A stretch of 64,000 nt of DNA from Waddliaceae bacterium. GTDB taxonomy: Bacteria > Chlamydiota > Chlamydiia > Chlamydiales > Waddliaceae. The notes below the pieces were generated by a model, which worked only from the letters and a program-made list of their open reading frames with translations, was not told where the DNA came from and did not search any database. Position 1 is the stretch's first letter. Each line of letters begins with the position of its first letter. The stretch covers positions 512,001-576,000 of the forward strand of contig CAVRUH010000001.1 in assembly GCA_963724325.1 (NCBI GenBank), read 5' to 3'. Shown here piece after piece: positions 24,602 through 27,843 of the stretch. The translations under genes were made by a program, and so were the position numbers.

Positions 24602-26602
24602 TCAATAGAGCTCAATCTGTTCGTATTTGCGCATTAGGTCTCGGAAGTTTGCGGCATCTTCAAAGCGCATCTCTTTTGCCGCTCTTTTCATTTCAGAGTC
24701 ATAGAATTTGATTTTTTTGTCAACCTCGGCTTGGGTGAGGTACTCATGATGTGTTTCAGCTGCCATACGAAGGGGTACTTCCGGAGTCGTATATTCAATT
24801 TCTTCCACCTCAGGGAGCACAAGCGCAATAATCTCCCTCTTCACTGTGGTTGGTGTGATGCCATGTTTTTCATTGTACTCTTCCTGAAGGGATCGACGTT
24901 CCTGGGTGATATTAATGGTATTTTTAATCGCCTCGGTCATGTGATCGCAATACATGATGACTCGGCCTTCCGAATTGCGCGAAGCGCGTCCACAGGTTTG
25001 TATGAGGGCTGTTTGACTGCGGAGAAATCCTTGCTTGTCAGCGTCTAGAATGCAAACAAGAGAAACTTCGGGTATATCGAGGCCTTCTCGTAGAAGATTG
25101 ATTCCAACAAGAACATCAAAGGTGCCAGAACGGAGATCTTGAATGATTTGCGATCTTTCAATCGTGTCAATATCAGAATGGAGGTATTTTGCTTTTACAT
25201 TGAGTTCTGTGAGATACTTAGAAAGCTCTTCGGAAAGTCTTTTAGTTAATGTCGTGACAAGAATTCTTCCGCCGCGTGAAACATGTTCTCGAATTTCGGC
25301 AAGTACATCATCCACCTGATTTGCAGCAGGCCTAGTTTCTATTATCGGATCAAGCAATCCCGTTGGACGAATCACTTGCTCTACAATTTCTTCTCCAGCT
25401 TCATGAATCTCCCAAGGGGCAGGTGTTGCAGAAACGTAGATTACTTGATTCATTCTAGCATAGGTCTCTTCAAATTTTAAAGGTCGGTTGTCATAAGCTG
25501 AGGGAAGACGGAAGCCAAAATCGACCAACGCCTGCTTCCTAGCACGGTCTCCATTGAACATCGCATGAAGCTGGGGGATCGTTTGATGAGATTCATCAAT
25601 AATAAAAAGGTAATCCTTAGGAAAATAGTCAATTAAACATGAGGGAGGATCTCCTTCATTACGCATGGCGAAATGCCTTGAGTAGTTTTCGATTCCCTTG
25701 CAGAAGCCCACTTCCTTAATCATTTCAAGATCATGCATGGTCCTTTCATGGATTCGCTGTTTTTCAATGAATTTATTTTCTTTCTCAAAAAAATCGACCC
25801 GATCTTTTAATTCCAATTTTATATTTTCCATAGCCTGAAGACGAACTTCTTCAGGGGTGACGTGGTGAGAACTTGGATAAATGTTCATTTCATCTATAAG
25901 ACTGCGTGTTTTTCCTGTTAGTGGATCGATAACTGAGAGTCTTTCGATATCATCTCCAAACATTTCGACTCGAATAGCCAGGTCTTCTTCATAAGCAGGA
26001 AATATGTCAATGATATCGCCGCGAACACGGAATGTTGCACGGCTGAAATCGAAGTCATTTCTTTTGTATTGCATCTCAACCAAATGGAGAAGCAAATCAT
26101 CGCGTCGGCGCTTTTCCCCAGTTTTGAGCTTTAAATTCATGCCGCGGTAGTATTCGGGAGATCCCAATCCGTAAATGCACGAAACAGAAGCAACAATCAG
26201 AACGTCATCACGCTCCAGAAGCGATCTGGTAGCGCTCAGGCGCATTTTATCGATCCTGTCGTTGATTGCCATGTCTTTTTCGATATAGGTGTCTGTACGG
26301 GCAATGTAGGCCTCTGGCTGGTAGTAGTCGTAATAAGAAACAAAATATTCAATAGCATTATTTGGAAAGAAGTTTTTAAATTCCTGATACAGCTGCGCTG
26401 CAAGAGTCTTATTGTGGGCCATTACTAAAGTAGGTTTTTGAATGCGCTCTACCACATTTGCCATGGTAAAGGTCTTGCCTGAACCTGTGATTCCCAAGAG
26501 AACCTGTGACTTCTTTCCTCGTTTAAGCCCGTCCACAAGCTTTTCAACTGCCTGCGGCTGATCTCCTTTCAATTTAAAGTCACTTCTAATCTGAAATTTC
26601 AT
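24602..26602 (-). CDS. uvrB: Excinuclease ABC subunit B
   Basis: GDQPQA, GITGSGKT, YYDYYQPEAY, DESH, C-terminal UVR domain. Confidence 0.98.
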   Translation of the reverse strand: MKFQIRSDFKLKGDQPQAVEKLVDGLKRGKKSQVLLGITGSGKTFTMANVVERIQKPTLVMAHNKTLAAQLYQEFKNFFPNNAIEYFVSYYDYYQPEAYIARTDTYIEKDMAINDRIDKMRLSATRSLLERDDVLIVASVSCIYGLGSPEYYRGMNLKLKTGEKRRRDDLLLHLVEMQYKRNDFDFSRATFRVRGDIIDIFPAYEEDLAIRVEMFGDDIERLSVIDPLTGKTRSLIDEMNIYPSSHHVTPEEVRLQAMENIKLELKDRVDFFEKENKFIEKQRIHERTMHDLEMIKEVGFCKGIENYSRHFAMRNEGDPPSCLIDYFPKDYLFIIDESHQTIPQLHAMFNGDRARKQALVDFGFRLPSAYDNRPLKFEETYARMNQVIYVSATPAPWEIHEAGEEIVEQVIRPTGLLDPIIETRPAANQVDDVLAEIREHVSRGGRILVTTLTKRLSEELSKYLTELNVKAKYLHSDIDTIERSQIIQDLRSGTFDVLVGINLLREGLDIPEVSLVCILDADKQGFLRSQTALIQTCGRASRNSEGRVIMYCDHMTEAIKNTINITQERRSLQEEYNEKHGITPTTVKREIIALVLPEVEEIEYTTPEVPLRMAAETHHEYLTQAEVDKKIKFYDSEMKRAAKEMRFEDAANFRDLMRKYEQIELY

Positions 26603-27843
26603 GATCGAAAATATGGGTCGAAGTGAAAGCCCAAATGCTGGTCTTCAACTGAGTCTGCGATGTGTTTTTTTGGATGACGCGAATGATCAAATTCACGATG
26701 AGGATTCATAAATAGTTCTAAGATCTCATCTGTAATTTGAACACGAGCCTCCTGGTGCTCACGCAATACTCCCCAAACTACCTCTATTGTTTTCTTTTTA
26801 ACCTCTGAGGTCATCATCCTTCCTGCCTGATATTCCTTGGCAATTCTTTTTAGTTCTATGTCGTCATCAAGGAAATAAAGCAAGTAATGATACGCCACAT
26901 CTACAGCCAAATTCGCCCCTTTTTCAATATGTTCCTGTTTAGTCATTCCCCCGCCGGAAAAGGCCTTTTCCCTAATTTTTTTGGAGACCATTTCCTCTGT
27001 ATCATTCATGAAAATCACTTCTTTTTGACCGGTAGAACTTGCTTTGTCATGTGCATGTTCCAGGCTAGGTAAAAAACGGGATTGGATAGTTGCAGGTTTC
27101 TTAAAGCCTATTTTGCGAGCAATTTCCCGCGCCATCTTGAAATATGGATATTGATCAATTGCCATAGGCACAAGGCAATACAACTGCTGATCTTTGAATA
27201 TATTCTCAAATGAGGTGCTAAATGCCGGAGCCGCCTGAAAACAAGGCCAACTTAATTGACCAACGCTATTATTCAAATCCAATCCATAAATACCATGAAT
27301 CATATTCCCCGAGGTGTGCTTCATAATCATGACAATATTGCGATAATAAGATCCACCAACGGTTTCCAAATTTGAAAAAATCCACGTTTTCTGCGGGTTA
27401 AAACCACAGGCGATAATATCTTTGGCATTAAAACGCACCAAGCGGTTAGCCTCTTCTAAAGGAAGATTATCTTTAAAATAATATTTTTCGTCATCAGTCA
27501 TCATCACTACAACAATGGCATCAAAGGCATCCTGAAGATATTTAGTAAACATAAAAGGTACCATATGACCAAGATGTAAAGATTCCGAACTTGGTCCTCT
27601 CCCAGTATATAAATAAATTTCTTCCCCTCGCTCATAAGCATCGAGCACTAGATTAAGATCTTTGTGAGAAAAGAAAATCCCTCTTCGCAACCAAGGATGA
27701 GCCTTCATTTTTGTGACACGCTCAAAACGACTTATCAGAGAACTATCAATAGGCTGACAAGCAAATTGTTCAATCAATTTCAAATAATCAATTCCAGTTG
27801 TGGAGGTCACTTCCCAAGGGGTTATCTTAGCTTCTTCTTCCAT
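26599..27843 (-). CDS. trpS: Tryptophanyl-tRNA synthetase, eukaryotic/archaeal type
   Basis: ITPWEV..IDYLKLIEQF, HPWLRRGIFFSHKD, YLYTGRGPSSESLHLGH, AIDQYPYF, AFSGG. Confidence 0.93.
   Translation of the reverse strand: MEEEAKITPWEVTSTTGIDYLKLIEQFACQPIDSSLISRFERVTKMKAHPWLRRGIFFSHKDLNLVLDAYERGEEIYLYTGRGPSSESLHLGHMVPFMFTKYLQDAFDAIVVVMMTDDEKYYFKDNLPLEEANRLVRFNAKDIIACGFNPQKTWIFSNLETVGGSYYRNIVMIMKHTSGNMIHGIYGLDLNNSVGQLSWPCFQAAPAFSTSFENIFKDQQLYCLVPMAIDQYPYFKMAREIARKIGFKKPATIQSRFLPSLEHAHDKASSTGQKEVIFMNDTEEMVSKKIREKAFSGGGMTKQEHIEKGANLAVDVAYHYLLYFLDDDIELKRIAKEYQAGRMMTSEVKKKTIEVVWGVLREHQEARVQITDEILELFMNPHREFDHSRHPKKHIADSVEDQHLGFHFDPYFRS

What the first reader, a model, noticed from the sequence alone, without database searches (positions are those of the whole stretch)
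26599..27843. Eukaryote-type TrpRS occupying the native chlamydial trpS slot
Seen: TPWEV..IDY.KLI.QF, LRRGIFFSH.D, YLYTGRGPSS, AIDQ.PYF and AFSGG. The gene starts 4 nt after the tyrP stop and overlaps uvrB (ATGA). Established: these motifs mark eukaryotic cytosolic/archaeal TrpRS, also carried by some giant viruses. Bacterial TrpRS has GxDQ and KMSKS, and Chlamydia has a bacterial-type trpS next to uvrB. Inference: in-place xenologous replacement from a eukaryotic host or giant virus. It should change tRNA-Trp identity requirements and indolmycin sensitivity. The tight operon junctions argue against contamination.
Basis: partly seen in the sequence, partly recalled or inferred. Interest (0 to 1): 0.85.

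Follow-up and report, generated by a model that had tools for sequence, protein, structure and literature searches.

The report
Eukaryote-type TrpRS replacing chlamydial trpS
An environmental chlamydia has swapped its own tryptophan-charging enzyme for one of the eukaryote and giant-virus kind, in the same spot of the same operon, although its tryptophan tRNA still looks bacterial at the base that normally keeps the two enzyme kinds apart.

Summary
Window 26599-27843 (minus strand) encodes a 414-aa eukaryote-type TrpRS (human TrpRS E 1.8e-124). It lies in a tight thyX-tyrP-trpS-uvrB operon and is the only TrpRS found in the assembly.

Same-family genomes carry a bacterial trpS in exactly that slot, so replacement in place is supported. 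It recurs in two other families. One genome keeps a decayed relic of the bacterial gene in the slot.

The protein belongs to a chlamydia-only clade (support 100). That clade occurs in 11 of 400 genomes and 7 of 211 genera, and no holder tested (12 of 12) also has a bacterial trpS. The immediate donor was therefore probably another chlamydia. The clade nests among Catovirus-like giant-virus sequences and shares their C-terminal tail.

The predicted tRNA change did not happen: tRNA-Trp keeps G73 and the same acceptor stem in 33 of 33 loci. The enzyme must accept G73. Clade-fixed changes at human positions D314 (to Tyr) and M350 (to Ala) are candidate adaptations.

This genome alone also has Met at the indole-binding Gln194 position.

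Five literature searches found no description. Verdict: a new variant of known synthetase displacement.

The parts
26599..27843 (-). Eukaryote-type tryptophanyl-tRNA synthetase, 414 aa. It is the only TrpRS found in the assembly.
   Evidence: AlphaFold2 model: pLDDT 92.5, pTM 0.92. dN/dS about 0.04 against the nearest homologue.
27854..27859 (-). AAGGAG ribosome-binding site, lying inside the last codons of tyrP, 10 nt before the trpS ATG.
   Evidence: Read directly from the sequence.
27848..28990 (-). tyrP-family aromatic amino acid permease. It is the upstream flank of the slot, and its stop lies 4 nt before the trpS start.
   Evidence: PF03222 at E 2.9e-93. Orthologous flank in G002 and G004 at 57-60% identity.
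28987..30624 (-). thyX (long form, 545 aa), the first gene of the conserved cluster. It overlaps the tyrP start.
   Evidence: PF02511. 74-81% identical in G001, G002 and G004, and directly upstream of tyrP in G002 and G004.
24602..26602 (-). uvrB, the downstream flank. Its ATG overlaps the trpS stop (ATGA).
   Evidence: NF003673 at 1027 bits. Closest to same-genus G001 from the first 60-aa window onward: 80% against 60-63% to the other four genomes compared.
27502..27504 (-). Codon 114, ATG (Met), at the position of human Gln194, which hydrogen-bonds the indole N of Trp. It is the only window-private change at a column that is at least 97% conserved in the chlamydial clade.
   Evidence: 102 of 102 other chlamydial rows have Gln. 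Met also occurs in 6 of 121 diverse representatives. The role of Gln194 comes from passages of PMC1538984.
27148..27150 (-). Codon 232, TAT (Tyr), in AIDQ-Y-PYF. This is the position of human Asp314 and B. subtilis Lys149. It is fixed in the chlamydial clade.
   Evidence: Tyr in 96 of 96 distinct chlamydial rows against 1.5% of 198 others (Asp in 80%). The equivalence is from passages of PMC1538984.
27040..27042 (-). Codon 268, GCA (Ala), in the KMSAS-type loop, which reads K-A-S-S-T here. It is fixed in the chlamydial clade.
   Evidence: Ala in 96 of 96 chlamydial rows against 4.5% of others (Met in 93%).
26602..26691 (-). C-terminal tail (residues 385-414) ending in LGFHFDPYF. It is shared with the Catovirus-like group. 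It is absent from the plant row, the metazoan-like row and the two rows from contigs of Megavirus and Pandoravirus size.
   Evidence: Alignment. Consensus of the near group. pLDDT 87 for residues 401-410.

Best explanation
This is the working, and only, tryptophanyl-tRNA synthetase of an environmental chlamydia, and it is of the eukaryote/giant-virus type.

It replaced the ancestral bacterial trpS inside the conserved thyX-tyrP-trpS-uvrB cluster. In this genome a second tyrP copy went with it. The gene is now translationally coupled to both neighbours.

The gene did not come straight from a eukaryote. It belongs to a clade that entered the Chlamydiae once, from a source near Klosneuvirus/Catovirus-like giant viruses (direction inferred). 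Since then it has been passed between chlamydial lineages. Each time the resident bacterial enzyme was lost. The new gene either landed in the trpS slot next to uvrB or landed elsewhere, with the native gene then decaying.

The tRNA-Trp did not change. The enzyme must therefore charge a tRNA with G73, which human TrpRS handles about 91-fold worse than its own tRNA. The inferred adaptation is two clade-fixed substitutions near the acceptor end: Asp to Tyr after AIDQ, and Met to Ala in the KMSAS loop.

Shown here: type, position, uniqueness, distribution, unchanged tRNA, relics, purifying selection. Inferred: direction of the first transfer, recombination as the mechanism, the role of the two substitutions, and any selective driver such as escape from inhibitors aimed at bacterial TrpRS.
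For: Type. The best PDB match is human TrpRS at E 1.8e-124. The best eukaryotic anchor is plant P0130 (Musa) at 51% identity. Catovirus P0104 is at 55%.

Sole enzyme. PF00579 finds only this gene and a TyrRS in the 2.37-Mb assembly. tblastn with G001's bacterial TrpRS finds no remnant. All 12 of 12 holders tested lack a bacterial trpS above the cut-off.

Slot.
- G002 and G004 read thyX-tyrP-tyrP-trpS(bacterial)-uvrB. G000 reads thyX-tyrP-trpS(eukaryote-type)-uvrB.
- The same contrast occurs in family f3 (G009 against G180) and family f30 (G036 against G208).
- In f16, G022 has an intact bacterial gene in the slot. G093 has a 212-aa relic there that lacks the HIGH, GxDN and KMSKS regions, and carries its eukaryote-type gene on another contig.

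Not contamination. The gene lies on a 1.11-Mb contig. Its GC is 39.2% against 40.1% for the genome, and its codon score is at the 56th percentile.

Clade. The chlamydial rows are monophyletic (support 100) on a stem of 0.33. They sit inside a clade with support 95-97 that holds 5 IMG/VR giant-virus contigs, including the 1.15-Mb Catovirus contig. The C-terminal tail is shared with that group.

Patchy spread. The gene was found in 9 of 400 genomes of the order and 11 of 400 of the phylum sample (7 of 211 genera), and in 0 of 7 other genomes of this family.

Transfer within the chlamydiae. Eukaryote-type TrpRS identity between families is 78-82%, while uvrB of the same genome pairs is 64-69%. 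Bacterial TrpRS tracks uvrB (75-81% for both) within f1.

Constraint. dN is 0.10-0.14 with synonymous sites saturated.

tRNA. All 33 of 33 loci have G73, and 32 share one acceptor stem. Four of the 33 come from eukaryote-type holders.
Against: - The assembly is only 84.6% complete, so a second trpS in unassembled DNA cannot be excluded.
- The indole-binding Gln is Met in this genome. The human Q194L mutant is inactive and Q194A is 155-fold down (PMC1538984 passages). That leaves some doubt about full activity, although Met occurs naturally in 6 of 121 other representatives.
- The tree inside the chlamydial clade is poorly resolved. An AU test did not reject monophyly of the two f32 members (p 0.575). 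Transfer between chlamydiae therefore rests on distribution, slot contrasts and a rate comparison, not on tree conflict.
- No donor-like tract is visible in uvrB, so recombination through the flanks is not shown.
- The residues that read A73 in human TrpRS (Asp99, Lys102) are kept (D19, K22). By the human model that argues against good G73 recognition.
- Most sequences nearest the chlamydial clade are unnamed metagenomic proteins, so an unsampled protist source is possible.
- The empty thyX-tyrP-uvrB slot in f8 also occurs in G014, which has a bacterial trpS elsewhere. That state says nothing about this displacement.
Confidence: 0.8

Rival explanations
1. This lineage captured the gene directly from its eukaryotic host or from a co-infecting giant virus.
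For: The family is eukaryotic and viral. No other genome of this family has the gene (0 of 7).
Against: The protein is 78-85% identical to genes of other chlamydial genomes, against at most 57% to any non-chlamydial sequence found. It sits inside a chlamydia-only clade with support 100. It carries all four clade-signature residues. Its base composition is fully native.
Confidence: 0.05
2. There was one ancient acquisition. Both enzyme types then coexisted for a long time and were lost differentially, with no transfer between chlamydiae.
For: The chlamydial clade is monophyletic. The AU test does not reject agreement with family f32. Synonymous sites are saturated, so the gene is old in chlamydiae.
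Against: None of the 12 holders tested keeps both types. Only 7 of 211 genera have the gene, and they are minorities within six families. That pattern would need very many parallel losses and long redundancy of an essential single-copy function. Eukaryote-type TrpRS identity between families exceeds uvrB identity by 13-14 points, whereas bacterial TrpRS matches uvrB.
Confidence: 0.1
3. It is an assembly chimera or contaminant DNA from a eukaryote or virus binned into a chlamydial MAG.
For: The genome is a draft (11 contigs, 2.2% contamination estimate). Public reads gave only short pieces.
Against: The gene lies inside a 1.11-Mb contig, between chlamydial genes that are 75-83% identical to those of relatives. 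It has 4-nt and overlapping junctions and a bacterial ribosome-binding site. The same eukaryote-type-trpS-then-uvrB adjacency occurs in two other genomes. Codon use is native. No other TrpRS is present.
Confidence: 0.02
4. It is an accessory or decaying paralogue with another role, and the real bacterial trpS lies in the missing 15% of the assembly.
For: Completeness is 84.6%. Gln194 is replaced by Met.
Against: The native slot itself is occupied by this gene. Eleven other holders manage without a bacterial trpS, four of them 94-96% complete. The gene is under strong purifying selection. It keeps the HxGH signature, the AIDQ motif, the loop lysine and Tyr159.
Confidence: 0.03

Closest known systems
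Human / eukaryotic cytosolic TrpRS (WARS1; PDB 2quh, 2azx, 2ake)
   Same: Full-length similarity (E 1.8e-124). It has the N-terminal beta-hairpin and helix alpha1' with Asp99 and Lys102, the HxGH signature, the AIDQ motif, the loop lysine and Tyr159.
   Different: - No WHEP or N-terminal extension.
- Works in a bacterium on a G73 tRNA.
- Tyr for Asp314, Ala for Met350, Gln for Arg106.
- In this genome, Met for Gln194.
- An extra C-terminal tail of about 30 aa.
Giant-virus TrpRS of the Catovirus/Klosneuvirus-like group (P0104; IMG/VR loci L084-L087, L089)
   Same: These are the nearest non-chlamydial relatives (55-57% identity; one clade at support 95-97). They share the C-terminal tail motif ending in FDPYF.
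   Different: The viral enzymes keep Asp (or Ala/Cys) after AIDQ. Most keep Met in the loop. The chlamydial clade sits on a long stem of its own (0.33) and is encoded in bacterial operons.
Gene displacement in situ of aminoacyl-tRNA synthetases by horizontally acquired xenologues. Examples such as eukaryote-like IleRS or ProRS in bacteria are recalled, not checked here.
   Same: A non-orthologous enzyme of another domain's type takes over an essential function in the same operon position, and the native gene is lost.
   Different: I found no report for TrpRS, where the two types are separated by a tRNA discriminator barrier. Here intermediate stages are also preserved: a relic of the native gene in G093, and fragments of the incoming type in G024.
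Bacterial TrpRS of related chlamydiae (G001 and others)
   Same: Same function, same operon slot, same tRNA substrate.
   Different: Only 24% identity over the core. The bacterial enzyme has GxDN/KMSKS motifs, no N-terminal domain, and the conserved Glu that reads G73 (passages of PMC12135181).

Membership tests
Eukaryotic/archaeal-type TrpRS (class Ic) | Overall sequence similarity to solved eukaryotic TrpRS rather than to bacterial TrpRS | tested here: met
   Human enzyme 418.8 bits. Archaeal 3jxe 248.7 bits. Bacterial TrpRS II 29 bits.
Eukaryotic/archaeal-type TrpRS (class Ic) | HxGH signature and AIDQ motif | tested here: met
   HLGH at residues 90-93 and AIDQ at 228-231. Both are invariant in the alignment.
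Eukaryotic/archaeal-type TrpRS (class Ic) | KMSAS-type mobile loop | tested here: inconclusive
   The lysine is kept (K267), but Met is replaced by Ala in all 96 chlamydial rows (KASST). Ala also occurs in 4.5% of other rows.
Eukaryotic/archaeal-type TrpRS (class Ic) | N-terminal domain with beta-hairpin and helix alpha1' carrying Asp99 and Lys102, the A73 readers | tested here: met
   TPWEV hairpin, D19 and K22, from the alignment to human numbering. Roles are from passages of PMC1538984.
Eukaryotic/archaeal-type TrpRS (class Ic) | Trp pocket formed by Tyr159 and Gln194 | tested here: not met
   Tyr is kept (Y79). Gln194 is Met114 in this genome only, while 102 of 102 other chlamydial rows have Gln. 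This lowers certainty about normal Trp binding. It does not change the family assignment.
Eukaryotic/archaeal-type TrpRS (class Ic) | Cognate tRNA-Trp with A73, G1:C72 and U5:G68 | tested here: not met
   The genome's tRNA-Trp has G73, G1:C72 and G5:C68.
Eukaryotic/archaeal-type TrpRS (class Ic) | Tryptophan activation and tRNA charging activity | not testable with these tools
   Indirect only: it is the sole TrpRS, and it is under purifying selection.
NCBIfam archaeal-type TrpRS equivalogs (NF008927, NF008924) | Score above the curated cut-off | tested here: not met
   343.8 bits against a cut-off of 478, and 321.3 against 644. Only the general TIGR00233 model passes.
Bacterial-type TrpRS | GxDQ-type motif, KMSKS, no N-terminal domain, Glu that reads G73 | tested here: not met
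   24% identity to G001's enzyme. The position of the G73-reading Glu holds Lys236.
Xenologous gene displacement in situ | Same flanking genes in relatives, an occupant of different ancestry, and the original gene absent | tested here: met
   thyX-tyrP upstream and uvrB downstream are conserved in G002 and G004.

The most novel reading that the evidence does not exclude
A eukaryote/giant-virus-type TrpRS has crossed, in nature, the discriminator-base barrier that keeps bacterial and eukaryotic TrpRS/tRNA-Trp pairs apart. The chlamydial clade charges an unchanged G73 tRNA. It may do so through two clade-fixed substitutions beside the acceptor end (Tyr at human position 314, Ala at 350). The clade then spreads among chlamydiae as a displacement cassette, possibly favoured because it escapes natural inhibitors of bacterial TrpRS. 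In this genome a further Gln194-to-Met change remodels the tryptophan pocket.
Probability: 0.3. Interest if true: 0.8.

Novelty: new variant of a known kind. Interest (0 to 1): 0.68.

Why it matters
TrpRS is the textbook case of domain-specific tRNA recognition: G73 in bacteria against A73 in eukaryotes and archaea. That separation is used to build orthogonal translation pairs and to aim antibiotics at the bacterial enzyme.

A natural lineage in which the eukaryote-type enzyme serves a G73 tRNA as the only TrpRS offers three things.
- **A ready-made specificity switch to dissect.** There are only four clade-signature positions.
- **A caution about drug targets.** Inhibitors aimed at bacterial TrpRS would probably miss these chlamydiae.
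- **An unusually complete record of essential-gene displacement.** In-slot replacement is seen in three families, a decaying native gene in one genome, and dead fragments of the incoming type in another.

It also adds a concrete gene to the traffic between giant viruses and chlamydiae, which share amoebal hosts.

Tried and rejected
- **Naming the nearest non-chlamydial relatives.** Three cluster look-ups named only plants. The profile search named only Catovirus, a viral metagenome entry, and double-length plant and isopod proteins. Eukaryotic anchors in the trees are therefore few: P0130 is Musa, and P0186 is taken as metazoan only from its human-like coordinates.
- **Conflict between gene tree and family labels.** The tree inside the clade is poorly resolved (4 of 34 branches starred). 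The careful search did not finish. The AU test for f32 gave p 0.575.
- **A donor tract in uvrB.** None was seen in 60-aa windows.
- **Mobile elements beside the gene in other genomes.** Thirteen neighbouring ORFs in L015, L017 and L019 are ordinary housekeeping genes, with no transposase or integrase.
- **Read support.** No run holds more than 16% of the sampled words. Exact 150-156-nt contig pieces cross the two junctions by only 29-30 nt, below the 31-letter rule, and may come from the source sample. Nothing covers codon 114.
- **RNA evidence.** No RNA holder was listed.
- **The empty thyX-tyrP-uvrB slot in f8 holders.** I first read it as deletion after the gene's arrival. I rejected that because G014, which has a bacterial trpS elsewhere, shows the same state.
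- **Literature.** Five searches on TrpRS or aaRS with Chlamydiae or giant viruses, plus one on eukaryotic-origin aaRS in amoeba symbionts, returned nothing on a eukaryote-type TrpRS in chlamydiae. Only the held library was searched.
- **Not run.** No complex prediction and no fold search were run.
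Full report
**What is there**

The ORF at 26599..27843 lies on the minus strand and encodes 414 aa. It is the third gene of a same-strand run.
- thyX (28987..30624) overlaps the start of tyrP (27848..28990).
- The tyrP stop lies 4 nt before the trpS ATG.
- AAGGAG sits 10 nt upstream of that ATG, inside the end of tyrP.
- The trpS stop shares ATGA with the start of uvrB (24602..26602).

The protein matches Pfam PF00579 and NCBIfam TIGR00233 (245.3 bits, cut-off 176.75). 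It stays below the cut-offs of the archaeal-type equivalogs. Against PDB sequences the best matches are human cytosolic TrpRS (E 1.8e-124) and other eukaryotic enzymes. An archaeal enzyme scores 249 bits and a bacterial TrpRS II only 29. The language-model atlas also points to eukaryotic cytoplasmic TrpRS. An AlphaFold2 model from a 60-row alignment is confident (pLDDT 92.5, pTM 0.92).

**It is the only TrpRS**

The window lies on a 1.11-Mb contig of a 2.37-Mb assembly with 11 contigs and 84.6% completeness. PF00579 finds two genes in it: this one and a 434-aa frame that reads as TyrRS. tblastn with the bacterial TrpRS of the same-genus genome G001 finds nothing but this gene, at 24% identity.

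Composition is native. GC is 39.2% against 40.1% for the genome, and the codon-usage score is at the 56th percentile of 449 long ORFs. Against its nearest homologues dN is 0.10-0.14 while synonymous sites are saturated, giving dN/dS of about 0.04 where it can be computed.

**The slot**

None of 40 relatives has a eukaryote-type TrpRS. Their full-length hits are 25-29% identical, which marks them as bacterial enzymes. G001, G002, G003, G004 and G006 each have a bacterial trpS.

The gene orders are:

| Genome | Arrangement |
|---|---|
| G002, G004 | thyX-tyrP-tyrP-trpS(bacterial)-uvrB |
| G001 | trpS(bacterial)-uvrB, with thyX 36 kb away |
| G000 (this window) | thyX-tyrP-trpS(eukaryote-type)-uvrB |

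The second tyrP and the bacterial trpS have therefore been replaced by one foreign gene, between unchanged flanks. uvrB of G000 is closest to G001 from its first 60-aa window onward (80% against 60-63%). No donor tract is visible there.

**Distribution**

A search of 5.8 billion proteins gave about 90 clusters at 70-85% identity. Identity then jumps down to 57% and below, where Catovirus and a viral-metagenome entry appear. In one-genome-per-species collections the close relatives are all chlamydial MAGs. One of them is labelled Verrucomicrobia, but its protein is identical to that of G208, a member of this order.
- At E 1e-60 or better the gene occurs in 9 of 400 genomes of the order. In this family only G000 has it (0 of 7 others). 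It is in f3 2 of 23, f8 2 of 49, f16 1 of 5, f30 1 of 29, and in 2 genomes of f32 (G265, G327).
- In the phylum sample it occurs in 11 of 400 genomes and 7 of 211 genera. One genus of f8 holds 5 of them. One genome (G104) could not be scored in either search.
- In 12 of 12 holders tested, the eukaryote-type gene is the only TIGR00233 match above the cut-off. Four further holders (G443, G447, G458, G459) were not tested.

**Stages of displacement**

The eukaryote-type gene lies directly upstream of uvrB in three families:
- G000 (f1).
- G180 (f3), whose relative G009 has a bacterial trpS there.
- G208 (f30), whose relative G036 has tyrP...trpS(bacterial)-uvrB.

In f16, G022 has an intact tyrP-trpS(bacterial)-uvrB. 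G093 carries its eukaryote-type gene on another contig. In the slot, overlapping the uvrB start, G093 keeps a 212-aa relic of the bacterial gene. The relic is 31% identical to G022's enzyme and lacks the HIGH, GxDN and KMSKS regions.

The reverse case also exists. G024 has a bacterial trpS but carries two short dead fragments of the eukaryote-type C-terminus, tail motif included. They are 39-45% identical, and one of them holds an internal stop.

In six other holders the slot reads thyX-tyrP-uvrB or tyrP-uvrB. G014 has a divergent bacterial trpS elsewhere and shows the same state, so this is not evidence about the displacement.

**Origin**

Two trees were built: a FastTree of 173 rows and an IQ-TREE (LG+C20+F+G4) of 86 rows. 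Both give a monophyletic chlamydial clade (support 100) on a stem of 0.33. That clade sits inside a larger one, supported at 97 and 95, with 5 IMG/VR giant-virus contigs and many unnamed metagenomic proteins. One of the five has the length and protein of Catovirus CTV1. Plant and metazoan-like rows lie across a split supported at 96-99.

Contigs with the lengths I recall for Megavirus and Pandoravirus fall elsewhere in the tree.

The chlamydial clade and the Catovirus-like group share a C-terminal tail ending in FDPYF. The plant, metazoan-like, Megavirus-size and Pandoravirus-size rows lack it. The model places the tail with pLDDT 87.

The direction, virus or unsampled protist into chlamydiae, is inferred from the nesting. 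Named eukaryotes are scarce in my sample.

**Spread within chlamydiae**

The internal tree is poorly resolved, and an AU test does not reject monophyly of the two f32 members (p 0.575). The case for transfer between chlamydiae rests on three observations:
- the patchy distribution;
- the same-family contrasts in three slots;
- a rate comparison. Bacterial TrpRS and uvrB diverge alike within f1 (75-81% for both). Eukaryote-type TrpRS is 78-82% identical between families whose uvrB is only 64-69% identical.

Thirteen neighbouring ORFs around the gene in three other genomes are housekeeping genes, with no mobile-element genes among them.

**The tRNA did not change**

tRNA-Trp (contig C11) has G1:C72, G5:C68 and discriminator G73. 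It is 100% identical to that of six genomes without the eukaryote-type enzyme. In 33 of 33 loci the discriminator is G, and 32 share one acceptor stem. Four of the 33 come from eukaryote-type holders. Two other holders gave no full-length match.

Passages of PMC1538984 and PMC12135181 state the following:
- A73 against G73 is the main barrier between the two enzyme types.
- Human TrpRS charges B. subtilis tRNA-Trp 91-fold less well than its own.
- A73 is read by Asp99, Lys102 and Arg106.
- Bacterial enzymes read G73 with a conserved Glu.
- B. subtilis Lys149 and Glu153, which switch tRNA preference, correspond to human Asp314 and Arg318.

I mapped these through the alignment. The window keeps D19 and K22. 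It has Gln at position 106 and Lys at 318.

**Signature residues**

Only four columns are at least 95% fixed in 96 distinct chlamydial rows and at most 5% in 198 others. They are Tyr232 (human Asp314), Ala268 (Met of KMSAS), Glu275 and His319. That the first two adapt the enzyme to G73 is an inference.

Separately, the window has Met114 where 102 of 102 other chlamydial rows have the Gln that binds the indole N. This is human Gln194, whose Q194L mutant is inactive. It is the window's only private change at a clade-invariant column, and it needs two base changes. Met occurs naturally at this column in 6 of 121 diverse representatives. No reads cover this codon.

**Verdict**

Direct capture from a host or virus by this lineage is not supported, and neither is a changed tRNA.

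Displacement of synthetases by foreign types is a known process. I found no description of a eukaryote-type TrpRS serving a bacterium (held library only).

An earlier scan note (e1-624146) concerns the Pandoravirus TrpRS, which is a different branch.

Noticed in passing
L113 1398..2036 (G093:C8, directly upstream of uvrB): A 212-aa open frame that is a decayed bacterial trpS. It has no HIGH, GxDN or KMSKS regions and is 31% identical to the intact gene of same-family G022. It still overlaps the uvrB start.
   Followed up: yes
L004 1483..1680 (-) and L114 about 1226..1460 (-), both in G024: Two short fragments of the C-terminus of a eukaryote-type TrpRS, tail motif included, in a genome that uses a bacterial trpS. 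One has an internal stop. They look like leftovers of a failed or reversed takeover.
   Followed up: partly
40 relatives of G000: The bacterial-type TrpRS of this order is itself heterogeneous. Identity to G001's enzyme is 64-100% in 25 genomes, 53% in one, 40-47% in 11 and 32-34% in 2. G018 gave no match. All six low-identity genes whose ±1.5-kb flanks were checked (G014, G017, G026, G028, G034, G040) lie away from the tyrP/uvrB slot, so trpS may have been displaced more than once.
   Followed up: partly
window 23052..24107 (+): A 351-aa protein with a signal-peptide-like start, a His/Ser-rich stretch, about 170 residues of collagen G-x-y repeats (PF01391, E 7.8e-17) and a non-repetitive C-terminal domain.
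   Followed up: no
window 24134..24589 (-): A 151-aa ORF that joins the first 72 of 126 positions of a nucleotidyltransferase-substrate-binding (HEPN-like) domain to a nucleotidyltransferase domain. G001 has two separate small ORFs at this place after uvrB. This looks like a fused or truncated HEPN/MNT pair.
   Followed up: no
window 30986..31267 (-): A 93-aa ORF matching the 23S rRNA intervening-sequence protein family (PF05635, 34.3 bits, just above the cut-off).
   Followed up: no
P0128, P0307-P0310: Double-length TrpRS proteins (779-921 aa, two TrpRS stretches) in plants, an isopod and an unnamed metagenomic representative.
   Followed up: no
L051 (G001 tRNA-Trp): The same-genus genome's tRNA-Trp is 74 nt long, with one extra C in the T arm. 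Its acceptor stem and G73 are identical to the others.
   Followed up: no
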